From an uncultured Bdellovibrionales bacterium (GTDB taxonomy: Bacteria > Bdellovibrionota_C > UBA2361 > SZUA-149 > DAOLCO01), in NCBI GenBank assembly GCA_964353175.1, contig CAYGUX010000005.1, forward strand, positions 84,373-148,372: 64,000 nt of DNA, written 5' to 3'. Position numbers and translations under genes: made by a program. The notes under the pieces were generated by a model. It saw only the letters and a list, made by a program, of their open reading frames with translations. It ran no database searches and was not told where the DNA came from. This document shows, in pieces, positions 11,239 to 62,668 of the stretch (its first letter is position 1; each line of letters opens with the position of its first letter).

Positions 11239-12262
11239 TTTGGCTTTCAATGGCCCACTCTCTAAATGGATGATTCACTGTGACTTCGGGAGGTGGCTCT
11301 CCATTGATAAACTTATGACCGTAAGCTTTTGCTAGTTCAAGACTACGTTCGGAGCCGATATGTAGAAGTGTTAAGAGGGATTCTTTCCTAAGTTCTTTGT
11401 CACTAGAAAACTGCATGACATGCGAAACTTCATCTAACAGATCTGAACTTTTATTAGCTTGATCAATGACACAGGACAATGCGGTTATTTTAGCATGCCT
11501 TGTCTGACTAGACTTTAATATACTTTGTATCATCTCTTCTGATAACGTTACTTGCTCCTTACTTAGAATCTGAGAATAAAGACATGCAGGTAACACGATT
11601 GAATCTGAGTCTTCCAGATTCAAATTCTGCATTAAATTCCATTCCTTGACCTTTGCATAGCTACTGGTAAATTGTTCACTGAAAAAAGTTTCAACTTTAT
11701 CTTTGATTTCTTTAGGTAACACCAAGCCAAGCCTAAGCATGGCGGCACAAACATAGAGTTCAGGAGTAATATTCCCCTTCTCTGTTTGAACATCAAATCT
11801 TGCAACACATCGCTTATGGAAAGCATTTTCCACACTTTCAGGGGATTTAGTTACTCTTATTAAAGCCAATAAGCTCTGAAAATAAATACTTTGAGTATCT
11901 ATCGAAGGTTCGGATTTTAGAAATAGATTTAACAATGTAGAGGATGCAAAGGATGCTCTTTTACCAAATGAGCCAATTACTTTTACAATCTCTACCTTCT
12001 CAAGATCACTAAACTGATCTGGTGATTCTTTAAGTTGATCTATCATCTCCCTTATCATATCTTTGATGTGTTCTGGGATCTCTACTGCTCTTCTAATTTC
12101 AACGGTATTTTCACCTATGGATAGAGTTCTAATTTCTTCCAGTTTGCTATTTATGGAATTCGACTTACGGGGAACTGAAATAGAGTTGTAAATTAAGAAC
12201 CAAGCAAGTATTGCGACGAATAGAAATAATATAAAAAATAGTAGGCTATTTGCTTTCTTCAT
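11216..12262 (-). CDS. Hypothetical membrane-anchored protein. 1-nt overlap with upstream lgt.
   Basis: N-terminal TM helix then a helical soluble domain with no recognisable catalytic motif. Its stop/start arrangement suggests co-transcription with lgt. Confidence 0.3.
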   Translation of the reverse strand: MKKANSLLFFILFLFVAILAWFLIYNSISVPRKSNSINSKLEEIRTLSIGENTVEIRRAVEIPEHIKDMIREMIDQLKESPDQFSDLEKVEIVKVIGSFGKRASFASSTLLNLFLKSEPSIDTQSIYFQSLLALIRVTKSPESVENAFHKRCVARFDVQTEKGNITPELYVCAAMLRLGLVLPKEIKDKVETFFSEQFTSSYAKVKEWNLMQNLNLEDSDSIVLPACLYSQILSKEQVTLSEEMIQSILKSSQTRHAKITALSCVIDQANKSSDLLDEVSHVMQFSSDKELRKESLLTLLHIGSERSLELAKAYGHKFINGEPPPEVTVNHPFREWAIESQIKTDSTQ

Positions 12263-13059
12263 TAGCTATTAAATATGGATTGGTTGTTGAATGCACTTTT
12301 CTCTTTTGATGGGATAAATATCAGGATACTTCCAGCAATTACTAGGGGGATAGAGATTAATTGCGCTTGGGATAAACCAAGATATACAATATCTTCAATG
12401 CGAATAAATTCTATGGAAAAACGAACTATTCCACTTAGCACGAGGTAAAAACCAAATATTTGACCTTTATTCCCTAAATAAGATTTAACTGATTTAGAGG
12501 TAAGTAAAAGAAGTATTAGTATCGATAAAAGAGACTCATAAACAGGAGTCGGGTGTACGAATAATTCAGTCGGGACAACTCCATATTTATAACTAGTACC
12601 CCAAGGTAGAGTGGTCTCAATTCCATAGTCCCCATCTCCTGATAATTGGCAACCTATTCTACCCACGGCATACCCTAAAGCTAAAACTGGAGCGACAATA
12701 TCAGTCATAGTGAAAAATGAGAGTTTATTGATCTTAAGAAATAAGGCGATGCCAAGTGTTCCGCAAATTAAACCTCCATAAAAAACGAATCCAGCACTGC
12801 TGAAAATCGTATGTATTGGGTCGTTTAGTAAGGCAGCTGGGTTTGAAATAATGGAAAATAGTCGAGCTCCTATGAATCCACTAATCGCGGCCCAAGTAAT
12901 CATGTCTTCTGCATACTTAGGACTTAGATTGAGATATTCTAAGTTTTTAGCCAGTAAATAATAGGAAGCTAGGAAACACAACAACATGAGGAATCCAAAG
13001 CTATAAATAGGGAGATTGACTCCAAAAGGCAAAGAAATATCGAATAAAGTAATAAACAC
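12262..13059 (-). CDS. lgt: Prolipoprotein diacylglyceryl transferase
   Basis: Polytopic protein with the Lgt signature region GYAVGRIGCQLSGDGDYG and a C-terminal PTPVYESL (HPTxLYE-like). 265 aa. Confidence 0.85.
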   Translation of the reverse strand: MFITLFDISLPFGVNLPIYSFGFLMLLCFLASYYLLAKNLEYLNLSPKYAEDMITWAAISGFIGARLFSIISNPAALLNDPIHTIFSSAGFVFYGGLICGTLGIALFLKINKLSFFTMTDIVAPVLALGYAVGRIGCQLSGDGDYGIETTLPWGTSYKYGVVPTELFVHPTPVYESLLSILILLLLTSKSVKSYLGNKGQIFGFYLVLSGIVRFSIEFIRIEDIVYLGLSQAQLISIPLVIAGSILIFIPSKEKSAFNNQSIFNS

Positions 13060-37045: not shown

Positions 37046-38151
37046 TACTCTATTACTACCGCTATTCCATTTATAACTTGCTTAACTACTATAGGATATT
37101 TAAAATATTTACCCCCCTCCTGATCTTGAACGTAAGAGAAATTACCAAGTACCCCTTCTTGTTCTTTTACATTTTGAAATATACTCATTAGGGTTTCATT
37201 ATCTCTTTTCATCTCAGATTTAATTCCGTTGGCTAAAATACTCACCATATCATATGCACTTCCCCCAAAAGGCAATTGAGAATCCTGCATATACCTTTCC
37301 TTATAAATCAATACAAAGCTTTCTTTCAAACTGTGATATGGATAAATGGAGCCCTCCAATCCCTCTGAATTAGGCAACAAAATAGCAGACTCCGTCATAT
37401 TAGTACTGAAAATATTAGGGGAAAATCTATTTTCCTTAGCCTGCTTCATAAAAATCACCATTTGCTCAGGCATTAGAAATAATCCAAGAGCTTTGATGTT
37501 CTTTAGTTTGGATTTTAAAATTAAATTTCTAAAATCCAAATCACTGGGGTTCACGCTCCCTACTTCCACTAAACTCTCCCCCTCAATTAGATTCCTCTCT
37601 AATCCCTTTTTCATTGATCTAAGATAACTATTTTCAACATCAACTACGCTAAATTCTTTTACATCTCGTTTTCGCAAATACTCCAATAATCCCCGCATAT
37701 ATTGTGCGCTATAGTTCATCGTTCTAATCACTAATTTTCTATCCACGGTGGGGGCTTCATCGGCACTGATATTAATTAAAATCTTACCATCTCGCTCTAA
37801 AATTGGAGCCAACGCACTAGCGGCAGGAGCACCAAATGCAAAAAATATATCGACTTTGTCAATGGTAGAGAGTTTATGGTAAGCACTAATAGAAGTCTTA
37901 GAATCATAATGATCATCTTCATAAACAAAATTGAGGTGTTTCACTTTAGTAGGATATTGAGAACGATATAACTCAATTCCATTCTTAATAGCATTCCCAT
38001 AATCAGCTAAAGGCCCAGAGAGAGGGAGAATAACACCGACTTTTAGCTTTGTAGACTCTCCCGAAACTCCAGTACAACAAAAAGCAAGAACCAAGAATAA
38101 TAAACTAAATAATCGTCCCATTCTCTCTCCTTTTCCTAAACTGTTTAACAA
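37045..38151 (-). CDS. Periplasmic solute-binding protein, LivK/Peripla_BP_6 family (paralogue A)
   Basis: KVGVILPLSGPLADYGNAIKNGIELYR and a signal peptide. Close paralogue of the downstream gene. Confidence 0.65.
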   Translation of the reverse strand: MLNSLGKGERMGRLFSLLFLVLAFCCTGVSGESTKLKVGVILPLSGPLADYGNAIKNGIELYRSQYPTKVKHLNFVYEDDHYDSKTSISAYHKLSTIDKVDIFFAFGAPAASALAPILERDGKILINISADEAPTVDRKLVIRTMNYSAQYMRGLLEYLRKRDVKEFSVVDVENSYLRSMKKGLERNLIEGESLVEVGSVNPSDLDFRNLILKSKLKNIKALGLFLMPEQMVIFMKQAKENRFSPNIFSTNMTESAILLPNSEGLEGSIYPYHSLKESFVLIYKERYMQDSQLPFGGSAYDMVSILANGIKSEMKRDNETLMSIFQNVKEQEGVLGNFSYVQDQEGGKYFKYPIVVKQVINGIAVVIE

Positions 38152-38714
38152 CCTCTTCTGCTATCCCGTTAGGTTCTATGTGAGGTACGAACTCTTTTTC
38201 TATCCCCTCAAGCTCAGACAAGTTCAACCCCTCCCTCAACCTCAACACCCCACCACCTGTCATCAGACACTTCCTAAACTTCTTTTTAATCTCTAAAAAA
38301 GTATCGCCGGGCTCAATGAATAGAGTGTGTATCATCTAGGCCTCTAAGCTCTTTTGCTAATTCATCTAAGTGCAAACTTGCCAAGAACAAACTATCCGAA
38401 GAACCTGAAGTTTGTAGGATCCCTTCAAAAGAACACTGCGCTAAACTTTTCCCTTCTACGAAGTCTGTAAAACCAATGTCGGTAAAAGAGAATACCGATC
38501 CATATCCACCTTCTCTAAGTCTACCTTCGAAAGAGATAGTTGATTTTAGCAGATCAAGACTGATCCGCTCTTTTTCCTCATCTACTGAAATAAAAATCTT
38601 TGGGGAGCCATTCAGATTGCTGGCAACATGCGCCTGCACCGGCAAGGAAGATGCATCTAGAATACTTTTAGCTTTTTGGAAGAAGTTAGTTAGGACTTGT
38701 AACATTCCATTCAT
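38105..38714 (-). pseudogene. Two hypothetical ORFs (133 aa and 76 aa) that overlap by ~23 nt in different frames. This is either a frameshifted single gene or a tightly overlapped pair.
   Basis: The ORFs 38313..38714 and 38105..38335 share the overlap sequence ATGATACACACTCTATTCATTGA. I recognised no family. Confidence 0.25.
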
Positions 38715-38766
38715 TATAGAGTGAAATTCCCTCAGGTCAAGCCTTTGCTCTCATACTTTCAGGCTC

Positions 38767-39380
38767 TTATACTCGCTCGTCAAAGAAGTCCTGCAATAGA
38801 TTGGCTCTTTCAAACTGCCCATTGGCTCTAAAAGCCTCGACCAGTGAACCTACGGCATCTAGATTTCTCCATTGGGTCATTTTGCAAGCAGATTCAGCAC
38901 ACTGAACAGACCATTCTAGGTCTTGAACCTCATTTGAATTAGAATAGATCCTAGACATTTCTATATAAGGAACAGGATCTCTAGGATCAACATCCAAAGC
39001 TCTTCTAAACATCTCCTTAGCTTGAATAATCCTATCGCCCCCTAAAAATAACTCGGCTCTTAACATATAGGCCTCTTTAGGTGCTTCCCCAGTCGCAAGG
39101 CAACGCACCAACAAATTCTCTCCCACCACAAAGTCACACCCTCTTTAAGTTCGTAATGACTTAGTGCACAATCTATTACATGCCTTAAAGGAGCATCTAG
39201 ATTTAAGGATCTCAATGCATCTCTTAACTTCAAAACGGATTCCTCTAAAGCAGATCCTCCGATATTACTTAAAAGAAGAAGATGAACATACTTTGCTGTA
39301 ATTTCAACATTATTAGGAAGCACTTCTTTCCCAATCTCTAAAGTCTGAAGAGCAAATCTACTTTTACCCAGATATGACAT
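38767..39380 (-). pseudogene. TPR-repeat protein split into two overlapping ORFs by an apparent frameshift near 39125-39135
   Basis: The ORFs 39060..39380 and 38767..39129 are both TPR-like and overlap by 70 nt in different frames. Shifting one nucleotide into the other frame gives a continuous protein (...HYELKEGVTL / VVGENLLVRCLATGE...). Confidence 0.45.
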
Positions 39381-39391
39381 TTCAGTAGTTG

Positions 39392-39670
39392 CTATGCTGA
39401 ATAAGAGTTAATCGTCTGATAAAATCCTGTTTGACCCGAGGTTAGAGGCCTCGGGACTGAAAAAAGCCCAGTTAAATCAAACAGGAGACCTATGAAGAGG
39501 ATATCATATAAAACCGCTGGCTTAACAGTTCCTCGCTTTTTTAGAGCGCACGTTCGTGTGCGCTCTAAAGGCGGTCCTGCCTGCGGTACCATCCTGATAC
39601 CGCTTACGACAGCACAAGCCCGCTCAGAACTGTTAAGCCCGCCGTTTATTTTTCCCCCACCTCCTCCATT
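39392..39670 (-). ncRNA. Candidate structured RNA or leader element: a G+C-rich block of nested perfect hairpins, family unassigned
   Basis: Hairpins read directly (plus strand): CCTGTTTGA...TCAAACAGG enclosing CCCGAGG-ttagagg-CCTCGGG; TTTAGAGCGCAC-gttc-GTGCGCTCTAAA; GCGGTA-ccatcctga-TACCGC; and the long-range pair GGCTTAACAGTTC / GAACTGTTAAGCC. The block is followed by a T-rich and CCTCCTCC tract, and is much G+C-richer than the flanks. Strand is assigned only from its proximity to the TPR gene start at 39380. Confidence 0.3.
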
Positions 39671-39777: not shown

Positions 39778-40035
39778 ATGAAAAATCGGCTTAATTTAAC
39801 TATAGATGAAGATTTACTTGTAAAGGTAAAGAAATTTGCCTCTGATTCGGGGGTTTCCTTGTCTAGTATTGTGGAAAAGGGGCTGGCTAGAGTAATTAGT
39901 CAAGAAGAGAATATTAATATTGATAAGCTGCTAAATGATTTTCATAAAAAGGCACTTGGCAAGAACTTTAAAGAACCTTCTGACATATTAATAAAAGATC
40001 TTTTACAAGATAGAAGGCAGAAAAAGTATTCGTGA
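39778..40035 (+). CDS. Type II antitoxin, ribbon-helix-helix (CopG-like)
   Basis: N-terminal LNLTIDEDLLVKVKKFASDSGVSLSSIVEKGL is an RHH pattern. 85 aa. Its stop overlaps the GTG start of the downstream PIN gene (GTGA). Confidence 0.55.
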   Translation: MKNRLNLTIDEDLLVKVKKFASDSGVSLSSIVEKGLARVISQEENINIDKLLNDFHKKALGKNFKEPSDILIKDLLQDRRQKKYS

Positions 40036-51677: not shown

Positions 51678-53342
51678 ATGATTAAATATAAGATACATAG
51701 TTCACTTGTTTTAGCATTAATTTGTATAAGCCTACTCTCTTCTTGTTCTTTTATGGATAGCAATGAGTCGGTAAATACAGTTGAAGATGCGGAAGATAGT
51801 AGTGATCCTGATACTACGGAAACAGATTTAGAAAGCTCAGAAGATACCGAGGAAGATTATACTGAAATAGAGTTAATTTCCGAAGCTCAAAGATCATATG
51901 ACGCTGGCCGATACATGATCGCAAAAAATTTCTTCGATAAAATTGTGCAAAACTATCCTGGTAGCCCCTTATCCCTTACAGCGGAATTAAAGATTGCTGA
52001 TTGCCTATTCTTAGCTGATAGGTTTGTAGATGCTATTCCATACTATCGGGATTTTGCAAAAATCCACTCTAAACACGAAGCCAGACCCTACGCCTTATTT
52101 AAAATTGGAGAATCCTTTCAGAATACATATCAGGGTACTAATCAAGATTTAACGCCTTTAAAGGAAGCAATCAAGGCCTACCTATTTGTAATCAATGAGT
52201 ATCCTAAAGGGAAATATGCATCCCAAGCAGCATCAAATATTAGGCTAGCGGAAGAAGACTTATTTAAATCCGAGCTATCAGTGATTGATTTTTATGTAAG
52301 AACTGGCGATAAAAAATCTGCCGATAAAAGAATTTTAGATTTAGGGCATCAATATGGGCATCTTGATATATATAAAGAATATTCAAAAGACCAAGAATTA
52401 ATCAGAGAACAAGCATTTAAACAAGAGGTCATAGCTCAGGAAGAGACACTTACCGATGGTTCAATAGAGTCAATAGAGATTGAAGAGAGCGACAATAATA
52501 AAGTGGAAAAACCACTAGAAACTACATCTTATTCCGTCGATACTACTACTTTTAGAAGTGATAGTAATGATATTAAAGAGGACTTAAATCGAACTGAAGA
52601 AAAGGCTTTAGAACTTGCATTGCAGGCTGTTCCCTCCCCCATACCATCTGCCACACAACCACAAGCTATAGTGAGAGAAACACAAATTCTTCAGACTACA
52701 GCTGAACCATTAGCTTCTCCAACAAATGAACCAAAAGAAATCGGAATTGCTAACCCTCAAAATAAAACTTTAGCAGATTTAGATCCCATTACTTCAACCA
52801 AAGAGACAGGGATGGATGTTATAAAGACTGAGAATCTGAATGTAGCGGTAGATAAAGGAAACCTTCCCAATATCGGAAGTGAGTCACAGGTATTAATGGA
52901 CAGTCCAAACAGACTATCCGAGGACTCTGATGAGATCGGCTTAGAGCAACTCAAAGGTTCATTCCTACATACTTTTAATTGCGAACAGGAAGATGGAATT
53001 ATAAAAGTTTTTATGAACTTCGGAGCAAAACCATTTCTAAAGTCTTCAAGAAAAGACACAAGTAATGGCAGTTTAAATACTATCGTCTTCCAAGAAGGTT
53101 TCTCAACCAATCCACTACCACCCGATACGAATAGTGATGAATGGATTAAACGGCCATTAAAAGTATGCATGCAAATTGGAGATCAATCTGTACTAATAGA
53201 GGAAAGAATTAAATCAAAGTTAGGATCCTCTCAATTTGGTCCTAATTCCTATGTTTTTGTCTACATCCGTTCAAAAAGTATAGAGAAAATTTCAATAGTA
53301 AATGGGTCTAGTCCAGAGACTTTGGCTATTATTGCTCAATAA
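51678..53342 (+). CDS. bamD: BamD (YfiO)-like TPR lipoprotein with a long low-complexity C-terminal extension
   Basis: Lipobox LSSCSF. The N-terminal ~230 aa has BamD-like TPRs (AKNFFDKIVQNYPGSPLSLTAELKIADCLF...YYRDF...YPKGKYASQA). ~300 additional residues follow, rich in T/S/E/P. Confidence 0.5.
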   Translation: MIKYKIHSSLVLALICISLLSSCSFMDSNESVNTVEDAEDSSDPDTTETDLESSEDTEEDYTEIELISEAQRSYDAGRYMIAKNFFDKIVQNYPGSPLSLTAELKIADCLFLADRFVDAIPYYRDFAKIHSKHEARPYALFKIGESFQNTYQGTNQDLTPLKEAIKAYLFVINEYPKGKYASQAASNIRLAEEDLFKSELSVIDFYVRTGDKKSADKRILDLGHQYGHLDIYKEYSKDQELIREQAFKQEVIAQEETLTDGSIESIEIEESDNNKVEKPLETTSYSVDTTTFRSDSNDIKEDLNRTEEKALELALQAVPSPIPSATQPQAIVRETQILQTTAEPLASPTNEPKEIGIANPQNKTLADLDPITSTKETGMDVIKTENLNVAVDKGNLPNIGSESQVLMDSPNRLSEDSDEIGLEQLKGSFLHTFNCEQEDGIIKVFMNFGAKPFLKSSRKDTSNGSLNTIVFQEGFSTNPLPPDTNSDEWIKRPLKVCMQIGDQSVLIEERIKSKLGSSQFGPNSYVFVYIRSKSIEKISIVNGSSPETLAIIAQ

Positions 53343-53419
53343 TTATCCCAATAAATTACAGGAGTTTATCAGTTTTTCCGCTTATATATTTGCGTTTTGC
53401 TTCCTAACTCTGTTAGAAA

Positions 53420-53461
53420 GACTTCGATTTTAGGCATGTATTTATGCTTAAAATCGAAGTC
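53420..53461. repeat. Strong hairpin (13-bp perfect arms GACTTCGATTTTA / TAAAATCGAAGTC, extendable to ~18 bp with one mismatch) in the bamD-like / Rrf2 intergenic region
   Basis: Read directly. It sits ~78 bp after the bamD-like stop and ~280 bp before the Rrf2 start, and no T-tract follows. Confidence 0.5.
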
Positions 53462-53742
53462 TAAGAATTACTTACATTGTTATAGGCAATATAAGTAATT
53501 TGGAGGTGTTTTTTAAGTCAGTTGCTTGTATTAGTCGGTTGATTTAGTGAACATACTAAAATGAGGAATGTTATCTGTTTTTAGTTTAAATTGCCTTAAG
53601 ATTTAATCATTCGAAAGATTGATTAATCTTGAATAGCTTTATAAATGAGAGATAGAAGTAACAGTAATCAAATGAGTTTTTTAGCAATAGTAAGATTAAA
53701 CTGATTAAAAGTCAGGAATTAAAATAATAGAGGAACAAACAT

Positions 53743-54198
53743 ATGGCGGTTAAGCTCTCGAGAGAAGAACAATATGGAATTATGGCATTGGTCGATTTAG
53801 CTTACAACCTAAATGGTGGCCCAGCTCAAGTTAGGCAAATTGCAAAAAGACAAAAAATCCCACAAAGATTTCTTGAGCAAATATTTGCTAAGCTTAGACA
53901 AGCGGATGTTGTAGTTGGTAAAAGAGGTCCAAGAGGCGGTTATTCATTGGCTAAGGAGCCTAAGGATATCAGACTTGAAGAAGTGATGAGAGCTTTAAGA
54001 CCAAGACTACAAGAAGATCAAAGAACTGATACACCAGCTTTGGCTGAGTTGATCGACACAGTTTGGTCTGAAATCGAAGGTTCTTTTCAATCTACTCTAA
54101 GAGGTGTTTCTTTACAAAACCTTTGTGATAGAGCGAAAGATCTAGGTATCTCAGATGTAACTGAGATCGCAACAATGACTGGAAGAATTGATCAATAA
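53743..54198 (+). CDS. Rrf2-family transcriptional regulator (no Cys triad, so not an Fe-S cluster type)
   Basis: N-terminal wHTH with the Rrf2 signature: LSREEQYGIMALVDLA...VVVGKRGPRGGYSLAKEP. Confidence 0.8.
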   Translation: MAVKLSREEQYGIMALVDLAYNLNGGPAQVRQIAKRQKIPQRFLEQIFAKLRQADVVVGKRGPRGGYSLAKEPKDIRLEEVMRALRPRLQEDQRTDTPALAELIDTVWSEIEGSFQSTLRGVSLQNLCDRAKDLGISDVTEIATMTGRIDQ

Positions 54199-54259
54199 AT
54201 TTTCTAAGTCAATCTTGTGATGCTATAAAAGGGTCTCTACTAGAGACCCTTTTATATTT

Positions 54260-55156
54260 ATGAAAGAACAAACAAAAATATGTATAGTTGGTCTTGGAGG
54301 TTTAGGTATCCCGGCCCTTATAAGACTACTAAATCAACCTACTTCACTAGCTTTCACTATTTTTGAGGATGATGATGTAGAACTCTCCAATCTACCTCGT
54401 CAAGTCCTTTTTCAAAAAGAAGACCTCACTAAACCCAAGCTGGATGCATTGGCACTAGCCCTAAAAAGAGAAACTGAACTATTCTCTAATCAGTCTCATC
54501 AAGTCATATATCGTAAATATAAACTAACTCAAGATAATTTAGCTGAACTAGATCCTTTTGATGCTATTCTAGATTGTACCGATGATCCGATACTGAAATA
54601 TGCAATCAGTGATTATTGTAAAATTAAGCAAAAATATTTAGTCCATGCTGGAGCGCAAGGTCAGAGTGGATTTACGATGTTAGTAAGTCCTGATGGTCCT
54701 TGCCTAAGATGCGTATTTGGCGAACCAGACACGCATCAGCTAGCAGAGTACTGCAATTCATGCCGAGTTAGTGGGATTTTAGGCGCATATTCTGGTTTAA
54801 CAGGGGCCTATCAGGCTGAATTAGCACTGCAAGTAATTGATGGTGTGACTAGCCCGTCCGCATTCAGGATCAATACTAGCGGCACGAAATCATTATGTTT
54901 TGAAATAGATGAAGATTGCATATTGTGCGCTAAACACAAGGAGCTAGACCTACGAACGATTAATTGCCCCGAAACTTTTGTCTATACAAAGTTAGCACTT
55001 TTAAAGAGAAGTAATTCAACAGAAAAATTACTAGTAAATTTTAAGCAAGAAGAGGATTTATTGAGCGTAAAACAATCGATTTTAGAAGAAGGTTTTACCG
55101 TTTTATCTACAGTTAGTTGCGATGCATCGGGAACCTATAAACTACTAGTTCAGTAA
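54260..55156 (+). CDS. ThiF/MoeB/HesA-family E1-like adenylyltransferase with CxxC pairs and a ~75-aa C-terminal extension
   Basis: Nucleotide-binding motif ICIVGLGGLGIPAL, LSNLPRQ, Zn motifs CLRC...CNSC, and a further CILC. The C-terminal extension does not match canonical MoeB or ThiF. Confidence 0.65.
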   Translation: MKEQTKICIVGLGGLGIPALIRLLNQPTSLAFTIFEDDDVELSNLPRQVLFQKEDLTKPKLDALALALKRETELFSNQSHQVIYRKYKLTQDNLAELDPFDAILDCTDDPILKYAISDYCKIKQKYLVHAGAQGQSGFTMLVSPDGPCLRCVFGEPDTHQLAEYCNSCRVSGILGAYSGLTGAYQAELALQVIDGVTSPSAFRINTSGTKSLCFEIDEDCILCAKHKELDLRTINCPETFVYTKLALLKRSNSTEKLLVNFKQEEDLLSVKQSILEEGFTVLSTVSCDASGTYKLLVQ

Positions 55157-55160
55157 CCTT

Positions 55161-55568
55161 ATGGAAGATACATCTGAAACAGTAATACAGTATTCTAAAC
55201 ACTACCTAGTAAGTGGGTGGGGCCTTAAACAACAAGAAAAAGTCAAAGATATATATATTGACTGCCCACCAGATTGGTTTCTATTTAATCGCTATCTTGT
55301 GTCTATGGGTAAAGATAGTCCATTGGACCCAGATGTAGGAAGTCACCATATAAAATGTCTATTGAACCCGGAAACAACTATTATCGATGAATCAACCCAT
55401 GTTTTTACTGGTGAAATAAAAAATGAATTAGTGATTACCTTAAGTCAAAAACACACTAAAATTAAATCATGGAGCTTCAGTATTCCTAATACTTCAGTGA
55501 GTTCAGAGCTAATACAATTGTCATTTTTTCTAAGCTTAACTGACTCTATTATGTTGGAATTATTGTAA
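55161..55568 (+). CDS. Hypothetical protein, 135 aa, 4 nt after the E1-like gene
   Basis: No recognisable motif. Its tight spacing suggests co-transcription with the ThiF-like gene. Confidence 0.3.
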   Translation: MEDTSETVIQYSKHYLVSGWGLKQQEKVKDIYIDCPPDWFLFNRYLVSMGKDSPLDPDVGSHHIKCLLNPETTIIDESTHVFTGEIKNELVITLSQKHTKIKSWSFSIPNTSVSSELIQLSFFLSLTDSIMLELL

Positions 55569-55621: not shown

Positions 55622-56494
55622 ATGGTTACTAGATTAAAACAAATTCAATTACCAAATCTTTCTGAGAAGAAAGCAATTAAGGCAATGATCTCTACTTTAG
55701 GGAAGATTTTACTTATATTAGCAATTTACCTTGCCTATAAGTCTAGAATTAAGCTTGATCAATATAATTCAATTACTATCACTAAAGCTCATATTCCAAA
55801 TCTCCCTGATATTTCTGAAAATAGCGTCAGTATAAACGATAAGATTAGCCTGATAAAATCTAGAAATATTTTTGGTATCGTTGAGGATGAGATAAAGAAT
55901 GAACCTAAACAAGAAGTGAAAAAGATCTCTCCTTTGAAATTTCGTTTAGTAGGTACATTAATAACTCCAGGTATTCTACCGATGGCGATAGTAGAAGATC
56001 TACAAGCTAAAAAACAAGATACTTTTGAAGTAAACGAGAGTGTTTTTGAAAAAGCTACTCTCAAAGAGGTCTTCACTGATAAAGTAATTTTAGATAGAAA
56101 TGGTTCTTTAGAGACTCTAGAGCTAGAAGAGGGTCTATCAAACTCAGATGGGGAGTCTGGTATTCAAGCATCCAATGGAACATTTACTGTTCCCGAGGAA
56201 GAAGTTTCTGAAGCCCTAGCTAACTTACCTGTTTTACTATCGCAAGCAAGGGCGGTGCCCTATTTCAGGAACGGTCAAAGCATTGGGATGAGGTTATATG
56301 CCATCAAAGCAGGAAGCCTATATGAGAAATTAGGCTTAAAGAATTCAGACATAATTAAAGACATAAATGGCAGCCAAGTAAGCGATCCAACTAAAGCTTT
56401 AAAACTTTTTGAAGATTTAAAATCTCAAAGACAAATTGGTGTTCAAGTTGAAAGAGAAGGTAAGGACGTACAACTACAATACCAAATTAGATAA
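55622..56494 (+). CDS. gspC: Type II secretion system protein C-like (TM anchor plus C-terminal PDZ-like domain)
   Basis: N-terminal TM helix. The C-terminal GMRLYAIKAGSLYEKLGLKNSDIIKDINGSQV is PDZ-like. Positioned immediately before gspD. Confidence 0.55.
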   Translation: MVTRLKQIQLPNLSEKKAIKAMISTLGKILLILAIYLAYKSRIKLDQYNSITITKAHIPNLPDISENSVSINDKISLIKSRNIFGIVEDEIKNEPKQEVKKISPLKFRLVGTLITPGILPMAIVEDLQAKKQDTFEVNESVFEKATLKEVFTDKVILDRNGSLETLELEEGLSNSDGESGIQASNGTFTVPEEEVSEALANLPVLLSQARAVPYFRNGQSIGMRLYAIKAGSLYEKLGLKNSDIIKDINGSQVSDPTKALKLFEDLKSQRQIGVQVEREGKDVQLQYQIR

Positions 56495-56561
56495 TAAACA
56501 CTCTTTCCATACCTATTTACAGATAGTAGAAGTGGGACAAGATATTAATATATAAGAACTA

Positions 56562-59447
56562 ATGGTAAATAATAAATTTTCAATTCTTTGGCAGCATCTA
56601 TTTAGTCGTAAATGGTTGCAAAATCTCTGCTTTACCCTCTTTTTGATAATGGTTTCCTATATACATTCGAATGCAGATACTCAAAAGACCTTTCAAAACT
56701 TTAACGAGGATCAGGTGACTGATTTTTTTGAGAAAGAAGATTTTAGACCATTAAGTGAAGCAGAAGAAAGAGATGTTCCAAGTAGTACAACGACTACAAC
56801 AGCTCATAAAGTTGCGAATGTCAAAAAAGAATCTTTAGATTCTAAGGAGAAACAGCCTGAGCCAAGAGATTTAAGCCAATTAACTACTGTTCTAAATGTT
56901 ACAGATGCAGATATTGAGGCACTTGTTAAAACCTTTAGCAAGTTAACTGGGAGAAACTATATTGTTGATAGTTCGGTAAAAGGTAAGATTACTATTCATT
57001 TACCGACAGCCATTACTATTGAAGATGCTCTTAAGGTATTCGATTCTATCCTATTGCTTAAAGGTTTTGCGACCGTACCTGTCGGTGACAATATATGGAA
57101 GGTGATAAATGCTAAAGACGCTAAACAGACTACAATCCCTTCAGCATATTCTAAGAATACAACTTCCGAAAGTTTAGTAACTGAGATACTAAAAACAACT
57201 CATGTAAGTTCCGATGAGATTCAAAAACTTGTAGCCCAATTCATATCTAAAGATGGATTTTCTCAAGCTATATCAGGAACCAACTTAGTAATACTAGTGG
57301 ATACTACCGCCAACATAGACAGAATCAAAAGTTTACTAAATCAAATAGACATACCCCCTTTAGATCAGGATATAACGATAATAACCATCGAACATGCGGA
57401 GGCAAAGGATGTCTCAGAGAAAATCTCTAAAATACTAGGAGAGGACAGTGAAAAGGAAGGTGCGACCAATGATTTGCCGATTTCCAATAACTTTTTAAGG
57501 CGGCGTTTGAGCCAATTAAATAATGCTCAAAATGCACAGGCAAATGCCAACAATACATCGGGATCATCTATTCGGAGTACGCCAATGAAAATCATTCCAG
57601 ATGAAAGAACTAATTCTATTATAGTCGTTGCGGATGAATTTACAACGTTAAAAATAAGGGCTCTTGCAGAACAACTAGATAGTCAGACTGATAAGTCCGC
57701 TGGTAGATTTTATGTATATAGATTGGAGCATGCTGATGCAGAAGTGTTAGCACAAATTATCTCTGGATTAATCGGTGGTGGAGGGAGCTCCGGAAGTAGT
57801 ACAAGTGGTACACAAGGTAGTTCTTTTTCAAGAAATACTAGCAATTCTAGCTCTTCTAATTCGAGCCTTGGTGGGGCGAATAATAGTAACAGCAATAGTA
57901 CATTCGGTGGAAGCAATAGATCCTCTAGTCGCTCCAGGGCTAGCTCTAGCAGTGGCAGTGGAAATACAAATAATCCTTCATTTTTCTCTGATTCATCAAG
58001 AGTTACATTTGAGGATGAAATATCTGTAGCCGCAGACCCTTCTACAAACTCCTTAATTATAAACTCTAATAAATCTGACTACGAAAAACTTACCCAAGTA
58101 ATAATGATGCTTGATGTGAAGCGAAGACAAGTTTTAGTTGAAGCAACCATCCTAGAAGTCTCATTAACTGATGAAGTTGGAATAGGTGTTGAGCTTCAAG
58201 GTAGTCTAGGCTTAAATGACTCTGGTGTGATAAGTCAGACTAACTTTGGGAATATCTCCAATCTTTTAACTAACCCAAGTGCTCTGTCCGATCTAACTCT
58301 AGCGGCAGCGAGTGTTGGCACGCTCACGCTACCAGGAGGAGTTCAGATTCCTTCTCAAGCTGCTATTTTATCTGCAGTTAGTAGGCATTCAAATGTGAAT
58401 GTACTAAGTGCCCCTACTATTTTATCTACAGATAATGAAGAAGCTGAAATAATTGTCGGTGAGAACGTACCCTTTGTAAGTAGCACCGGCACGAATCAAA
58501 CAAATCTATCCAATACCTTTAACCAAATTCAACGGCAGGATGTAGGTATTACACTTAGAATTACCCCACAATTAGGTACAGGCGATTTCCTTTCCATGAA
58601 AATATTTGTGGAGATTTCTAATGTTGTTCAAGGTACTAGGAATGACCCTAATGGGCCTACTACCAGTATTAGAACTACGGATACACTTGTCGCAGTAAAA
58701 AATGGCCAGATGATAGTAACTGGAGGATTAATTCAAGATAGTATTAATGAATCAACAAGAGGAATACCCTTCTTAGAAGATATCCCAGTTCTTGGTGCCT
58801 TATTCCAGAGAAAAGATGACACTAAGAGAAGAACTAATCTTCTAATATTCTTAACTCCACAAATTATCCATGATCAATATGATGCTAGAGATTCTACCCT
58901 TCAAAAGCGAGACAATTTAAGAAGAGAGTTGGACGAAGATTCTACGACACCTGAGATACTGAGAAAATTAGATGACCCAGCGCTTGATAAGGTGTTTGAA
59001 ACAGGTGAGATAGAAGACCATAGGAGTAACCTACCAATATCTGAGGGACCGAAACCTGAAGTAGAAACTATTCAAATAGAAAACAAACCAATCATTAAGT
59101 CTAGTGAACAAAATGAATTTAACACTAGTGGTTTTACTTATTCAAAGAGCACTAAAAATGAAAAAACTGCTTCACTTCCACTCTCTATTAAAAAGTTTAT
59201 GGTTTTTAAATCATTAAGTGCCCCTTATAAAACTTCAGTTGTATATGTAGAATCAGAGGATGACTTATCCACTAAGTTTTTTACAGGTAGCAAGGCTAGT
59301 GTCATTGGCAGCAAGGCAGTTTGCCTTGGAGTATTTAGTTCCCTTGAGGAAGCAAGTAGTATCCATAAGGACTTACCACAACCTTTAGTTATCGTAGGGA
59401 AGAATTTTTTTGAGTTACAAAATCAAGGCTTAGTCTCCAATGAGTGA
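56562..59447 (+). CDS. gspD: Type II secretion system secretin GspD with a long S/G/N-rich low-complexity insert and an extended C-terminus
   Basis: Secretin domain blocks ([36 protein letters not shown]) and N0-N3-like repeats. 961 aa, including a ~90-aa Ser/Gly/Asn-rich linker ([12 protein letters not shown]...) and a ~190-aa tail. Confidence 0.9.
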
Positions 59448-60978
59448 GATAGTTCACCTACCTACAGATAAGCCGCCTACCAATCTTATCAAAGGAGACT
59501 TCTCTAAAATCATTGGTAGTTGGGCTAAGCAGTTTGGCGCTATACCAGTCTATGAAAAAGACGGAATAATCGTAGTTGCTACTCATAACTTAACTTCTAA
59601 AAGTGCACTAACTGCACTTCAAGCAAGTTATGGACTCCCTATTTTCCCGCTTAAAGTAGATGAAACTGAATTTCTAAGAATCTTAAATAGTTTTCGATCC
59701 AGTATAATGTCGGACAGAAATTATACTTTAGATACTACCGACAAGGAAGAAGATACAGATGATACCTTAGCTCAACTAAAAATTGATGTTACTGATGATG
59801 AAGATGATGATGCTCCAATTATCCGCTATGTAAACGCGTTAATTTTTAAAGCAGCGAATCTGCGAGCGAGCGATATTCACATAGAACCATTCGAACAGCA
59901 ATTGAAAGTCAGGTTTAGAATCGACGGTGTACTACAAGATGTAGCCACTGAGGACAGATATTTCCAAGCCGCAATTGGTTCAAGAATTAAGGTCATGGCT
60001 AACCTAAACATAGCAGAGAAACGTTTACCTCAAGACGGCCGTATTGGTTTAAAAATTGCTGGCCAAGATGTAGATATTCGTGTTTCCACAGTACCTACTA
60101 GATATGGCGAAAGAATTGTATTAAGACTACTGGACAAGTCTAAAGGTTCTTTATCACTGGAGAATATCGGATTTACTCCTGACATAAAAGTATCCATAGA
60201 GAAGTTAATTAAAAAAAGTTATGGTATATTCTTGGTAACAGGCCCCACCGGATCTGGAAAAACGACCACACTTTACGCATGTTTATCCGAGATACACTCT
60301 GTAGATAAAAATATTCTAACTATTGAAGACCCAATTGAGTATGAAGTCTCTGGCGTAGGACAGATGCAAGTAAATCCTAAGATTGATTTTACTTTTGCAA
60401 ATGGATTGAGGTCTATTTTACGGCAAGATCCAGATGTAATCATGGTCGGGGAAATTAGAGATTTAGAAACTGTTGAAATCGGCATTCAGGCGTCTCTGAC
60501 AGGACATTTGGTCTTTTCTACACTTCACACGAACGATGCCCCTGGTGCGATTACTAGGCTTTTAGACATGGGCGTAGAACCATTCTTAATATCCAGTAGT
60601 TTGTTGGGCATATTAGCACAGCGTTTAGTGCGAAGGTTATGCCCTACTTGCAAATCTGCGGATAATTTGACTGAAGTCGCGTGTTCAGAGCTAGGCCTAC
60701 CCCTAGATAAGGCTGGCACAGTGGTTTTTAAACATCATGCGGGAGGATGTGAAGCATGCCAAGGAACAGGATACTCTGGGCGAAGTGCGATACATGAATT
60801 ATTAGTCATAGATGATGTTGTGAGGCCCATGATTATGGAGCGAGCTAATGCAAGTACAATTAGATCTACAGCACTCGGCAATCGAAGTTTAAGAACAGAT
60901 GGTGCTGAGAAAGTATTACAGGGGATCACTTCAGTAGAAGAAGTTATGAGAGTTACCCAAGAAGATTCACAAGCATAA
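59440..60978 (+). CDS. gspE: Type II secretion system ATPase GspE
   Basis: Walker [11 protein letters not shown], Asp/His boxes, a tetracysteine motif CPTC...CEAC, and an N1E-like N-domain. 512 aa. Confidence 0.92.
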
Positions 60979-60986
60979 GTTAGAAT

Positions 60987-62207
60987 ATGTCCCCTGTTTT
61001 CAAATATACTGGATTAAATAAAGAAAGTGCCCAAGTTAAAGGAAGTCTTGATGCTGATAGCGTTAAAGGTGCTCGCGACAAGTTAAAATCGACAGGAATT
61101 TATCCTATCGATATCAAAGAAGTTAAGACCACGAATAGAGTTGGTAATAAAGATGTTCAAATTAAGAAGAAAAAAATTCCAGTTCTTCAACTATCTGTTC
61201 TAACCAGACAATTAGCAACCTTACTCCACGCAGGGATGCCTCTAGTGGACTCGCTAAAAGCACTCAGTGAACAAATAGAGAACCCACAAGTACGTCAGAT
61301 CCTCACTGAGGTGAGAGAAAAAGTTTTAGAAGGAACAGCCCTAAATATTGCACTTGAGGGTGCTGGTGGGGCATTCCCTAACCTGTACATTAAAATGGTT
61401 AGAAGTGGTGAAGCTAGTGGTACATTGGATATGGTACTTCAGAGGCTTGCAGATATGCTTGAAAGCCAAGCAATATTAAACAGAAAGATTATATCAGCTA
61501 TTTCTTATCCAGTATTGATGTTGTTACTATGTTTTGGGGTCATAATTCTATTGTTAGCATACGTAGTTCCACAAATTAGCGTTATCTTTAAGGAACAAGG
61601 CAAACCCCTGCCACTAATCACTCAAATCATCATCGGGGGTAGTGATTTTATCCGAGGGTATTGGTGGTTAATGGCACTTGTTTTTGTTGGAATAGGTATT
61701 TTATTTAAACGGTACCATAGTACAAAGATTGGTAAATATAACTTAGATAAATACCGTCTTAAGATTCCTATCTTCGGTGACGTATTTTTAAAGTTGGCAA
61801 CATCAAGGCTCTCTACCAATCTTGGAACAATGCTTCAAAGTGGAATTGAACTCTTAACAGCTTTATCAATCTCAAAGAATATTGTTGGAAATACCTATCT
61901 TGAAGAAGCAATTGATGAGGCTTCAGAGGGAGTGGAACAAGGGAAATCGCTTGCCGCCCTACTTTCTCAATCCAATAGGTATCCAAGGATTTTAATACAT
62001 ATGATAGCAATAGGCGAGCAAACTGGTGCGCTAGATGATATGTTGATAAGAGTTGGTAAATCCATGGAATCGGAGATAGAAGCGGTAGTTGATGGTTTAA
62101 CTGCATTGTTGGAACCAATATTAATTATATTTCTAGCATTTATTGTTGGTGGTATTTTAGCAGCAGTAATGTTACCAATGTTAGAAGTAACAAGTATAGG
62201 AAGATAA
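60987..62207 (+). CDS. gspF: Type II secretion system inner-membrane platform protein GspF
   Basis: Two GspF repeats, three TM helices and a conserved LLxAG(M/V)PL block. 406 aa. Confidence 0.9.
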   Translation: MSPVFKYTGLNKESAQVKGSLDADSVKGARDKLKSTGIYPIDIKEVKTTNRVGNKDVQIKKKKIPVLQLSVLTRQLATLLHAGMPLVDSLKALSEQIENPQVRQILTEVREKVLEGTALNIALEGAGGAFPNLYIKMVRSGEASGTLDMVLQRLADMLESQAILNRKIISAISYPVLMLLLCFGVIILLLAYVVPQISVIFKEQGKPLPLITQIIIGGSDFIRGYWWLMALVFVGIGILFKRYHSTKIGKYNLDKYRLKIPIFGDVFLKLATSRLSTNLGTMLQSGIELLTALSISKNIVGNTYLEEAIDEASEGVEQGKSLAALLSQSNRYPRILIHMIAIGEQTGALDDMLIRVGKSMESEIEAVVDGLTALLEPILIIFLAFIVGGILAAVMLPMLEVTSIGR

Positions 62208-62212
62208 ATAGA

Positions 62213-62668
62213 ATGGAAAATATAGAAGTTGAAAATAGTATCGAAGAAGTTAAGTTTTTACAAAATGAAAAGGGACTTACCTTAGTCGAGTTACTTGTTG
62301 TTGTAACTTTAATTGGCTTAATTGCAGTAGTTGTAGCAAGTAACGTATTTTCAAAAGGTGAAGCTGCTAAAGCTGAACTAAACTTAACTAGAATGAATAG
62401 TCTTAAACAGGAAATTTCTAGATACAGGCTAACCTACAACTCCTATCCTACTGCGATACAGGATTTAATCAGAGCGAACTCACAAGTTAAAGCTACTGGC
62501 AGGCCATTTACTGCGATACTTAAAGAAGATGAATTAAAAGACATGTGGGGTAACCCCTATGAGTATAAACTTGAAAATAGTGGTAGAAGTTATGTTCTAA
62601 CATCTTTTGGTTCTGACGGAATTCAAGGTGGCGAAGGTGCTAATCAAGATGTATCTGTAAGGCCATAA
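62213..62668 (+). CDS. gspG: Type II secretion major pseudopilin GspG. The leader is longer than usual if the annotated ATG is used.
   Basis: Prepilin motif KGLTLVELLVVVTLIGLIA, the GspG core, and a C-terminal GSDG. 151 aa. Confidence 0.85.
   Translation: MENIEVENSIEEVKFLQNEKGLTLVELLVVVTLIGLIAVVVASNVFSKGEAAKAELNLTRMNSLKQEISRYRLTYNSYPTAIQDLIRANSQVKATGRPFTAILKEDELKDMWGNPYEYKLENSGRSYVLTSFGSDGIQGGEGANQDVSVRP

What the first reader, a model, noticed from the sequence alone, without database searches (positions are those of the whole stretch)
53743..55568. Rrf2 regulator, atypical ThiF/MoeB E1-like enzyme and unknown 135-aa protein directly upstream of the T2SS operon
The E1-like protein has the Rossmann GxGxxG motif and two CxxC pairs like MoeB or ThiF, but adds a ~75-aa C-terminal domain of unknown fold. 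It is followed 4 nt later by a 135-aa protein with no recognisable motif. No MoaD/ThiS-like GG-tailed carrier is visible. Non-canonical E1-like genes paired with small unknown proteins are the kind of arrangement in which new conjugation, sulfur-transfer or signalling modules have been found. Placement between an Rrf2 regulator and gspC is unusual. The 400-bp region upstream of the Rrf2 gene holds a strong hairpin and an AAGATTGATTAATCTT palindrome that could be its operator.
Basis: inference. Interest (0 to 1): 0.5.

Follow-up and report, generated by a model that had tools for sequence, protein, structure and literature searches.

The report
Split ThiF–TusA sulfur-transfer enzyme beside T2SS
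The two "unknown" parts are identifiable: the extra domain is a TusA sulfur-carrier domain, and the 135-aa protein is a stripped-down, inactive copy of the ThiF enzyme itself, so this looks like a two-subunit sulfur-transfer enzyme built like eukaryotic ubiquitin-activating enzymes and always placed in front of a secretion operon in this lineage.

Summary
Both "unknowns" resolve.

- **298-aa protein.** It is a ThiF/MoeB adenylation domain with all catalytic and zinc motifs. It starts about 28 residues late, so it lacks the N-terminal arginine-finger helix. It is fused to a TusA/SirA domain with a conserved Cys (CPET).
- **Synteny.** Every fused ThiF-TusA locus with enough flank has a small-subunit gene. 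All 57 loci with a separate TusA gene have a full-length ThiF instead. The order Rrf2, terminator, ThiF-TusA, small, gspC holds in 11 loci, some only 29-34% identical. One locus lacks gspC.
- **Function.** Myxococcota relatives sit in ThiS/JAB/cysteine-synthase/APS-kinase clusters. The likely job is to thiocarboxylate a ThiS-like carrier encoded elsewhere.
- **Upstream region.** The proposed palindromic operator is at chance level and not conserved.

Verdict: a new variant of a known kind. E1+SirA sulfur modules were described in 2006. The heteromeric architecture and the T2SS linkage appear undescribed. The subunit pairing and the substrate are inferred, not shown.

The parts
53389..53446 (+). 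Conserved non-coding block between bamD and rrf2. Its role is unknown (promoter, leader or small RNA). It contains the 5' arm of the hairpin.
   Evidence: 40 of 55 columns are invariant with L001 and L002, although the proteins there are only 45-48% identical. The core motif is unique in the window and is found only in L001 and L002 among 162 loci.
53419..53462 (+).
   Evidence: -28.2 kcal/mol, z -8.68, and 0 of 200 shuffles fold as well. No U-tract follows it. Only the 5' arm is clearly conserved in relatives.
53615..53630 (.). Palindrome AAGATTGATTAATCTT, proposed as the operator. Not supported.
   Evidence: At chance frequency (2 observed, 2.35 expected). Absent from L001, L002, L003, L006, L087, L092 and L094. 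It lies in a window-specific insert.
53666..53742 (+). Conserved block directly upstream of rrf2, with the dyad CTGAT-N5-7-ATCAG (53701-53715) and a strong Shine-Dalgarno. A better candidate for the rrf2 promoter and operator.
   Evidence: Comparison by eye of the window, L001 and L002 upstream sequences. No statistical test was run.
53743..54198 (+). Rrf2-family regulator, IscR/CymR-like, without the Fe-S cluster cysteines.
   Evidence: Pfam Rrf2 1.2e-28. NCBIfam rrf2_super passes, but IscR and CymR score far below their cut-offs. It has a single Cys (C138). An Rrf2 gene lies upstream of ThiF-TusA in 8 loci.
54224..54259 (+). Terminator-like hairpin plus U-tract between rrf2 and thiF-tusA. 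It ends 3-4 nt before the ATG.
   Evidence: -21.5 kcal/mol, z -5.65. An equivalent hairpin plus U-tract, with unrelated stem sequences, is present in L001, L002, L087, L006 and L094. The consensus terminator scan did not call it.
54260..54859 (+). Large subunit, ThiF/MoeB adenylation domain (residues 1-200). It lacks the N-terminal arginine-finger helix.
   Evidence: Pfam ThiF 1.4e-34, and the match starts at profile position 20. The best PDB match is E. coli ThiF 1ZUD, with query residue 5 aligned to ThiF residue 29. G11, G13, G14, G16, R47, K60, D105, D108, C148, C151, C168, C220 and C223 are invariant. The ORF cannot be extended upstream.
54938..55156 (+). Large subunit, C-terminal TusA/SirA domain (residues 227-298) with the conserved Cys236 (CPET).
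   Evidence: Pfam TusA 1.1e-5, 25.6 bits against a cut-off of 28.6. Relatives carry PF01206. A family profile hits PDB 1JDQ at E 4.4e-8 and 1JE3 at E 7.8e-4, end to end with the Cys aligned.
55161..55568 (+). Small subunit: a truncated, degenerate ThiF paralogue. It keeps the N-terminal helix (Y11-S12-K13-H14), Q25 and Y45-L46-x3-G50, and lacks GxGxxG and the catalytic motifs.
55622..62668 (+). T2SS operon gspC, gspD, gspE, gspF, gspG and onward, directly downstream and probably co-transcribed.
   Evidence: Pfam and NCBIfam. There is no stable hairpin between the small gene and gspC in the window, L001, L003 or L007 (z -0.17 to +1.39).

Best explanation
**Shown**
- The 298-aa protein is a ThiF/MoeB-type adenylyltransferase with intact ATP-binding, catalytic and zinc motifs.
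- Its chain begins at the first Rossmann strand, so it lacks the N-terminal helix that in ThiF (Arg11) and MoeB (Arg14) reaches into the partner subunit's ATP site.
- It is fused at the C-terminus to a TusA/SirA sulfur-carrier domain with a conserved cysteine.
- The 135-aa protein encoded 4 nt downstream is a shortened, catalytically dead ThiF paralogue. It keeps that helix, with Lys13 in place of Arg.

**Inferred**
- The two proteins assemble into an asymmetric E1-like enzyme. The dead subunit completes or scaffolds the single active site, as the inactive adenylation domain does in eukaryotic E1s and as Tcd1 does for Tcd2 in yeast.
- The enzyme adenylates the C-terminal glycine of a ThiS/MoaD-like carrier encoded elsewhere in the genome.
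- Cys236 of the TusA domain, loaded as a persulfide by a cysteine desulfurase, converts the acyl-adenylate to a thiocarboxylate. This is the role the rhodanese domain plays in MoeZ, Uba4 and MOCS3.
- The genes sit behind a terminator that follows an Rrf2 regulator gene. In this lineage they appear to be transcribed together with the type II secretion operon. Whether that reflects a shared function is unknown.
For: - **Domains.**
- **Missing helix.** All 13 ThiF-TusA proteins begin just before GxGGLG, whereas a canonical ThiF has about 25 more residues.
- **Small protein is a degenerate ThiF.**
  - A whole-library HMM search with the small-family profile gave 1299 hits at E<=1e-3. Sorted by simple sequence patterns, the top 150 comprise about 9 window-type proteins, about 90 degenerate small proteins without GxGGxG, and about 49 N-terminal stretches of canonical ThiF.
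  - hhalign chain: E 6e-14, then E 3.4e-19, with clean reversed controls.
  - The basic residue at position 13 is Arg in 84 and Lys in 10 of 94 sequences. Q25 and G50 are invariant.
  - The N-terminal 20 residues of the model have low pLDDT, as expected for a segment that needs a partner.
- **Pairing.**
  - P0224 is a single 447-aa chain in the order ThiF, TusA, small.
  - The two genes overlap or lie 3-5 nt apart in the window, L001-L003, L006, L007, L087 and L088.
  - Every fused ThiF-TusA locus with enough flank has a small-subunit gene. All 57 loci with a separate TusA gene have a full-length ThiF and no small-subunit gene.
  - In L009, Pfam places the 218-aa paralogue on ThiF profile positions 1-56 and the short ThiF on positions 22-237.
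- **Sulfur-carrier function.**
  - Myxococcota relatives lie in PALP, ThiF-TusA, ThiS, small, PALP, JAB, APS-kinase clusters.
  - The ThiF plus separate TusA loci inspected have ThiS genes ending in AIAGG (four of six loci) and, singly, a ThiI-like gene and a cysteine desulfurase-like gene nearby.
  - The E1+SirA association in sulfur-assimilation operons is described in PMC1779556.
- **Arginine finger acting in trans, and the Tcd1-Tcd2 precedent.** PMC13139853.
Against: - No carrier gene (ThiS/MoaD) lies in the 64-kb window or in any T2SS-linked relative locus. The substrate is therefore unidentified.
- The window-clade small proteins do not match canonical ThiF directly (hhalign E 0.017). 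The homology is transitive.
- Physical association of the two proteins was not modelled.
- The arginine finger is reported as catalytically non-essential in ThiF and MoeB (PMC13139853), so the small subunit's contribution may be structural rather than catalytic.
- In the window clade the finger residue is Lys, not Arg.
Confidence: 0.6

Rival explanations
1. The module works for the type II secretion system. The E1-TusA enzyme and its small partner modify, activate or mature a T2SS component or secreted substrate, or make a thio-compound needed for secretion. On this reading the small protein is mainly an adaptor to that target, not a catalytic helper.
For: - gspC lies directly downstream in 11 of 12 informative loci, including relatives only 29-34% identical.
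- No terminator-like hairpin separates the small gene from gspC in the window, L001, L003 or L007, whereas every genome examined has one between rrf2 and thiF-tusA.
- No carrier gene lies nearby.
Against: - No T2SS protein in the locus ends in Gly-Gly, and I know of no T2SS step that needs adenylation or sulfur.
- The neighbourhood is a housekeeping block (ribonucleotide reductase genes (RNR), rpoD, dnaG, bamD), where order can persist without a shared function.
- Homologous ThiF-TusA plus small pairs in Myxococcota sit in sulfur-assimilation clusters with no T2SS genes.
- One high-GC relative (L091) has no gspC downstream.
Confidence: 0.12
2. It is a carrier-independent E1-like enzyme. The adenylation domain activates a non-ubiquitin-like carboxylate, such as a tRNA nucleoside as in TcdA, or a peptide or small molecule as in MccB and PaaA. 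The TusA domain delivers sulfur directly to that substrate.
For: - No ThiS/MoaD gene lies in the window or in the T2SS-linked loci.
- E1-superfamily members with non-Ubl substrates exist and appear among the PDB hits: PaaA, MccB and TcdA.
- All NCBIfam ThiF and MoeB equivalog cut-offs are missed by a wide margin.
Against: - The closest sequence matches are ThiF, Uba4 and MoeB (E 1e-24 to 5e-13), not TcdA, MccB or PaaA (E 1e-4 to 3e-6).
- The zinc CxxC pairs and the crossover-loop Cys168, typical of ThiF and MoeB, are invariant.
- The nearest related modules all have ThiS genes beside them.
Confidence: 0.15
3. The 135-aa ORF is a decaying remnant of a duplicated thiF gene with no function of its own. 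The large subunit works as an ordinary homodimer without an arginine finger.
For: - The arginine finger is dispensable in ThiF and MoeB, and absent from TcdA (PMC13139853).
- Other short ThiF proteins whose GxGGxG starts near residue 10 appear among the hits.
Against: - The ORF is kept intact, at similar length and with invariant residues, across relatives whose large subunits are 29-48% identical.
- Hundreds of family representatives exist.
- It is translationally coupled to the large gene.
- A natural fusion keeps it in frame.
Confidence: 0.05

Closest known systems
E1-like plus SirA/TusA sulfur-assimilation operons (type 4e of Iyer, Burroughs and Aravind 2006, PMC1779556)
   Same: - A ThiF/MoeB-type E1 without a rhodanese domain works with a SirA/TusA protein that supplies sulfur.
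- The Myxococcota relatives of the window protein sit in exactly this kind of cluster: ThiS, JAB, cysteine-synthase-like PALP enzymes and APS kinase.
   Different: - Here TusA is fused to the E1.
- The E1 has lost its N-terminal helix.
- A separate degenerate ThiF subunit is present.
- In the window's clade, ThiS, JAB and the sulfate-assimilation genes are absent from the locus, and the T2SS operon follows instead.
MoeZ / MoeBR / Uba4 / MOCS3 (E1 fused to a rhodanese domain)
   Same: - An adenylation domain carries a C-terminal persulfide-carrying domain on the same chain.
- Uba4 is among the best PDB sequence matches (E 6e-20).
   Different: - The sulfur-carrying domain is TusA, not rhodanese.
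- Those enzymes are homodimers with their own N-terminal helix.
- NCBIfam MoeZ scores 62 bits against a cut-off of 647.
Asymmetric E1s: eukaryotic SAE1-SAE2, NAE1-UBA3 and UBA1 (IAD plus AAD); yeast Tcd1-Tcd2; bacterial BilD and BubCD
   Same: - One active adenylation domain is paired with an inactive paralogue that has lost nucleotide binding but supplies the N-terminal arginine finger (PMC13139853).
   Different: - The inactive subunit here is much smaller: 135 aa, and 88 aa in Myxococcota.
- There is no catalytic cysteine domain, UFD, E2 or Ubl conjugation machinery.
- The function is sulfur transfer.
- The pairing itself is inferred, not demonstrated.
E. coli ThiF and MoeB
   Same: - Best-matching solved structures.
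- GxGGxG, Arg, Lys, Asp, the two CxxC zinc pairs and the crossover-loop Cys are conserved.
   Different: - About 28 N-terminal residues, including Arg11 (ThiF) or Arg14 (MoeB), are missing from the large subunit.
- NCBIfam ThiF scores 114 bits against a cut-off of 275, and MoeB 93 against 449.
- No thiamine or Moco genes lie nearby.

Membership tests
ThiF/MoeB adenylation domain superfamily (PF00899) | Profile score above the Pfam gathering cut-off, and the Rossmann GxGGxG motif | tested here: met
   119.7 bits against 28.1. G11-x-G13-G14-x-G16 is invariant.
ThiF/MoeB adenylation domain superfamily (PF00899) | ATP-site Arg and Lys, catalytic Asp, and two CxxC zinc pairs | tested here: met
   R47, K60, D105, D108, C148, C151, C220 and C223 are invariant in alignment A2. 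Their equivalence to ThiF R70 and MoeB R73 is by alignment and by PMC13139853.
ThiF/MoeB adenylation domain superfamily (PF00899) | N-terminal helix with the arginine finger (ThiF R11, MoeB R14) on the same chain | tested here: not met
   The Pfam match starts at profile position 20. Query residue 5 aligns to ThiF residue 29. The helix motif is on the separate 135-aa protein, as Y-S-K-H.
ThiF orthologue (TIGR02356) or MoeB orthologue (NF006444, TIGR02355) | NCBIfam equivalog score cut-off | tested here: not met
   114.3 against 275; 93.5 against 449; 59.6 against 377.
TcdA (tRNA ct6A synthase) | NCBIfam equivalog score cut-off | tested here: not met
   32.5 bits against 304.
TusA/SirA (PF01206) | Profile match over the whole domain, with the active-site Cys aligned | tested here: met
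   The family profile hits PDB TM0983 (1JDQ) at E 4.4e-8 and YedF (1JE3) at E 7.8e-4 over positions 1-69, with the Cys aligned. Relatives carry precomputed PF01206.
TusA/SirA (PF01206) | The window protein alone reaches the Pfam gathering score, and has the canonical CPxP motif | tested here: not met
   25.6 bits against 28.6. The motif is C-P-E-T, with Thr in place of the second Pro. That Thr is invariant in this clade.
E1-rhodanese fusion (MoeZ / Uba4 / MOCS3) | C-terminal rhodanese domain | tested here: not met
   No rhodanese hit. The C-terminal domain is TusA. MoeZ scores 62 bits against 647.
Type 4e E1+SirA sulfur-assimilation operon (PMC1779556) | ThiS/MoaD, JAB and sulfate-assimilation genes in the same neighbourhood | tested here: not met
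   None are present in the window. They are present in the Myxococcota relatives L004 and L005.
Asymmetric (IAD plus AAD) E1 | A second ThiF-fold subunit without nucleotide-binding motifs that carries the finger helix | tested here: met
Asymmetric (IAD plus AAD) E1 | Physical heterodimer in which the finger residue reaches the partner's ATP site | not testable with these tools
Support is indirect only: gene coupling, the natural fusion P0224, and complementary presence and absence.
Ubiquitin-like conjugation or defence E1 systems (Cap2, Bil, Bub) | E2, JAB or Ubl partners, and a catalytic-Cys or E2 domain | tested here: not met
   Only weak Rossmann-level PADLOC E1-E2 hits (E 6.5e-9 over residues 4-127), and none for the small protein. 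No such genes lie in the locus.
Rrf2 family, IscR-type Fe-S sensor | Three Cys cluster ligands, and the IscR or CymR equivalog score | tested here: not met
   The Rrf2 superfamily criterion is met (98 bits against 73). IscR scores 80 against 208 and CymR 78 against 195. The sequence has a single Cys, C138.

The most novel reading that the evidence does not exclude
In this Bdellovibrionota-like lineage, the ThiF-TusA enzyme and its dead-paralogue subunit are functional parts of the type II secretion operon. They would act without a classical GG-tailed carrier, for example by adenylating or thiolating a T2SS component, a secreted protein or a secretion-linked small molecule. Expression of the whole unit would be gated by read-through of the conserved terminator behind the Rrf2 gene.
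Probability: 0.12. Interest if true: 0.8.

Novelty: new variant of a known kind. Interest (0 to 1): 0.5.

Why it matters
- **E1 evolution.** If the two proteins form the predicted asymmetric enzyme, this is a sulfur-transfer E1 in bacteria already organised as one active plus one degenerate adenylation domain. That layout has been regarded as typical of eukaryotic ubiquitin, SUMO and NEDD8 E1s, and was seen more recently in Bil/Bub defence systems and in yeast Tcd1-Tcd2. It would offer a minimal system (135 aa, or 88 aa in Myxococcota) for asking what the inactive domain and its trans-acting finger helix actually contribute.
- **Annotation.** Hundreds of 'hypothetical' proteins of 88-220 aa could be given a name. 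The whole-library search gave 1299 hits at E<=1e-3, a count that also includes N-terminal stretches of canonical ThiF.
- **The T2SS linkage.** The strict placement in front of gspC, apparently in one transcript behind a conserved terminator, is unexplained. It is cheap to test in cultivable predatory bacteria.

Tried and rejected
**Searches and models that gave nothing usable**
- Rfam scan of the whole window: only a tRNA. There is no riboswitch upstream of rrf2 or thiF.
- Foldseek of the better model against the PDB: nothing significant. SAE1 ranked third at E 0.044.
- Pfam, NCBIfam and PADLOC on the small proteins alone: no hits.
- hhalign of the window clade directly against canonical ThiF: not significant (E 0.017).

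**Attempts to model the complex**
- An unpaired alignment on the natural fusion P0224 was unusable. MAFFT placed the small proteins on the N-terminal ThiF region.

**Attempts to identify the organism**
- The genome-contig scan was saturated by ordinary ThiF genes and did not return the source genome.
- Taxonomy therefore rests only on a GspC_delta match, which is borderline (149.6 bits against a cut-off of 150), and on relative L007 being labelled Bdellovibrionales.

**Other**
- One look-up was wasted on a 767-bp contig.
- Ideas considered and rejected: E2, JAB, beta-grasp or rhodanese identity for the small protein; a defence-type E1; an IscR-type Fe-S Rrf2 regulator; and the palindrome as operator.
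- Literature searches for ThiF-TusA fusions, or for ThiF with T2SS in Bdellovibrio, found nothing relevant.
Full report
**1. What is there**

The ORFs are as described:
- Rrf2: 53743-54198.
- A 298-aa ThiF-like protein: 54260-55156.
- A 135-aa ORF: 55161-55568, starting 4 nt after the previous stop.
- gspC (55622-56494), gspD, gspE, gspF and gspG follow.

Upstream lie a long BamD-like gene and, on the other strand, DUF4397, dnaG and rpoD. This is a housekeeping neighbourhood with about 36% GC. A borderline GspC_delta match (149.6 bits against a cut-off of 150), and relative L007 being labelled Bdellovibrionales, point to a Bdellovibrionota-like organism. The source genome itself could not be identified.

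**2. The 298-aa protein**

- Pfam ThiF matches residues 4-200 (E 1.4e-34), but the match starts at profile position 20.
- PF01206 (TusA) matches residues 227-298 (E 1.1e-5, 25.6 bits, just under the 28.6 cut-off).
- A profile of this C-terminal domain from 13 family members hits the solved TusA/SirA-family proteins TM0983 (E 4.4e-8) and YedF (E 7.8e-4). The match runs end to end, with the active-site cysteine aligned.
- The best solved relative of the N-terminal part is E. coli ThiF, with query residue 5 aligned to ThiF residue 29. Uba4 and MoeB come next.
- In an alignment of 13 ThiF-TusA proteins plus one canonical ThiF, every ThiF-TusA protein begins just before GxGGLG. The canonical protein has about 25 more residues.
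- The nucleotide-binding glycines, R47, K60, D105, D108, both CxxC pairs and the crossover-loop C168 are invariant. C236 of the TusA domain is invariant among the ThiF-TusA proteins, so the adenylation domain looks active.
- It falls far below every NCBIfam equivalog cut-off for ThiF, MoeB, MoeZ and TcdA. It is not an ordinary orthologue of any of them.

**3. The 135-aa protein**

- *By eye.* Its N-terminus (QYSKHYLVSGWGLKQQEKV) resembles the RYSRQ...G..GQ..L helix that opens ThiF and MoeB. In more distant relatives (L006, L007) the equivalent protein has the canonical ERYSRQLIL. That is followed by a Rossmann-like stretch without glycines and by YLAAAGV.
- *Family size.* A word-indexed search found only 11 relatives. 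A whole-library HMM search found 1299 proteins at E<=1e-3. Sorted by simple sequence patterns, the top 150 comprise:
  - about 9 window-type proteins;
  - about 90 degenerate small proteins of 100-220 aa without GxGGxG;
  - about 49 N-terminal stretches of ordinary ThiF.
- *Profile-profile comparison.* The window clade matches the YSRQ small family at 98.2% probability, E 6e-14. That family matches full-length ThiF at 99.2%, E 3.4e-19, across ThiF positions 1-215 with deletions. Reversed-sequence controls gave E 0.06 and 0.007. The direct comparison of the window clade with ThiF is not significant (E 0.017), so the homology is transitive.
- *Conserved residues.* Position 13 is Arg in 84 and Lys in 10 of 94 sequences. 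Q25 and G50 are invariant.

**4. Do the two belong together?**

- The genes overlap or are 3-5 nt apart in the window, L001, L002, L003, L006, L007, L087 and L088.
- P0224 is a single 447-aa chain in the order ThiF, TusA, small.
- Across 163 sequences scanned with my own HMMs, every locus with a fused ThiF-TusA and enough flank has a separate small-subunit gene.
- All 57 loci in which TusA is a separate 90-aa gene have a full-length ThiF with its own N-terminal helix and no small-subunit gene.
- In L009, Pfam itself places a 218-aa degenerate paralogue on ThiF profile positions 1-56 and the neighbouring short ThiF on positions 22-237.
- The N-terminal arginine of ThiF (R11) and MoeB (R14) acts in trans on the neighbouring subunit's ATP, though it is not essential there. 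In yeast Tcd1-Tcd2, an inactive ThiF-like subunit supplies it to the active one (PMC13139853).
- The inference is that the small protein pairs with the large one as an inactive-adenylation-domain analogue. I could not model the complex.

**5. What it probably does**

- Myxococcota members of the same ThiF-TusA clade, each with an 88-aa small subunit, lie in clusters of PALP, ThiF-TusA, ThiS, small, PALP, JAB, APS kinase and a PP-loop enzyme.
- Among the six inspected loci with a full-length ThiF and a separate TusA, four have a ThiS-like gene ending in AIAGG or AVSGG. Single loci also hold DUF169, a ThiI-like PP-loop enzyme or a cysteine desulfurase-like gene.
- This is the E1+SirA sulfur-transfer arrangement described in 2006, in which SirA was predicted to replace rhodanese (PMC1779556).
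- The most likely mechanism is therefore adenylation of a ThiS/MoaD-like C-terminus, followed by sulfur delivery from the TusA Cys236 persulfide.
- The window and all T2SS-linked relatives lack a nearby carrier, so the substrate is not identified.

**6. Context and regulation**

- The order Rrf2, ThiF-TusA, small, gspC (then gspD where the contig continues) is found in the window, L001, L003, L006, L007, L087, L088, L089, L090, L094 and L108.
- L002 and L093 end too early to tell. L091 has another gene downstream.
- Between rrf2 and thiF-tusA the window has a hairpin followed by a U-tract that ends 3-4 nt before the ATG (z -5.65). Five relatives have an equivalent hairpin plus U-tract with unrelated stem sequences. 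The consensus terminator scan did not call the window hairpin.
- No promoter-like site fits between this hairpin and the ATG, and thiF-tusA has no Shine-Dalgarno.
- Between the small gene and gspC there is no stable structure in the window, L001, L003 or L007.
- The inference is that thiF-tusA, the small gene and the gsp genes form one transcription unit, reached by read-through of the rrf2 terminator.
- The Rrf2 protein has one cysteine and scores far below the IscR and CymR cut-offs.

**7. The upstream region**

- The 20-bp hairpin is real.
- The palindrome is at chance frequency and lies in an insert missing from L001 and L002.
- Two other stretches are conserved with L001 and L002. One is 53389-53446 (40 of 55 columns invariant). 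The other is a block next to the rrf2 start that holds a CTGAT/ATCAG dyad.

**8. Verdict**

The two 'unknowns' are identifiable.
- The system is a new variant of a known kind: an E1 plus TusA sulfur-transfer module.
- It has an apparently undescribed split, asymmetric architecture and an unexplained, conserved position at the head of a T2SS operon.
- Literature searches found no description of either feature.
- The subunit pairing and the substrate remain inferences.

Noticed in passing
window 53389-53446: A non-coding block between bamD and rrf2 is 73% invariant across the window, L001 and L002, although their proteins are only 45-48% identical. It is unique in the window, has no Rfam match, and includes the 5' arm of the 20-bp hairpin. 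It could be a promoter, a leader or a small RNA.
   Followed up: partly
window 53666-53742 (dyad at 53701-53715): A second conserved block lies directly upstream of rrf2. It has a CTGAT-N5-7-ATCAG inverted repeat that varies in a partly compensatory way in L001 and L002. It was seen by eye only.
   Followed up: partly
window 54224-54259; L001 about 5081-5112; L002 about 5954-5990; L087, L006, L094 equivalents: A hairpin plus U-tract lies between the rrf2 stop and the thiF-tusA start in six genomes, with unrelated stem sequences. In the window it ends only a few nt before the start codon, which has no Shine-Dalgarno. This suggests attenuator-style control of everything downstream, including the T2SS genes.
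   Followed up: partly
L009 1215-6916; L012 about 8000-12270; L075: Deltaproteobacteria and Myxococcota MAGs have a short ThiF without TusA and without the N-terminal helix. They also have a 218-222 aa degenerate ThiF paralogue about 3 kb downstream, within a cluster of threonine-synthase-like, cysteine-synthase-like, HAD and APS-kinase genes. The active-plus-dead ThiF pairing therefore seems broader than the TusA-fused clade.
   Followed up: partly
L095-L162 (57 loci), e.g. L135 6451-9160 and L109 4945-9032: A widespread module has a full-length ThiF followed by a separate TusA of about 90 aa carrying the same CPxTFVYTKLAL motif. Individual inspected loci also hold ThiS (ending AIAGG), DUF169, a ThiI-like PP-loop enzyme with an NFACT-R_2 domain, or a cysteine desulfurase-like gene.
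   Followed up: partly
protein P0224 (447 aa, metagenomic): A natural single-chain fusion in the order ThiF, TusA, small subunit. In it the first CxxC pair appears lost (the sequence reads 'SLEELFG').
   Followed up: no
window 51678-53342 and 56562-59447: The BamD-like lipoprotein is 554 aa, with a C-terminal extension of about 320 aa beyond the YfiO domain. GspD carries a Ser/Gly/Asn-rich low-complexity insert of about 70 aa between Secretin_N repeats.
   Followed up: no
window 39778-40032: An 85-aa ORF matches DUF6364 and, weakly, the CcdA and CopG antitoxins. It lies in a stretch of small unannotated ORFs (38105-39589, minus strand).
   Followed up: no
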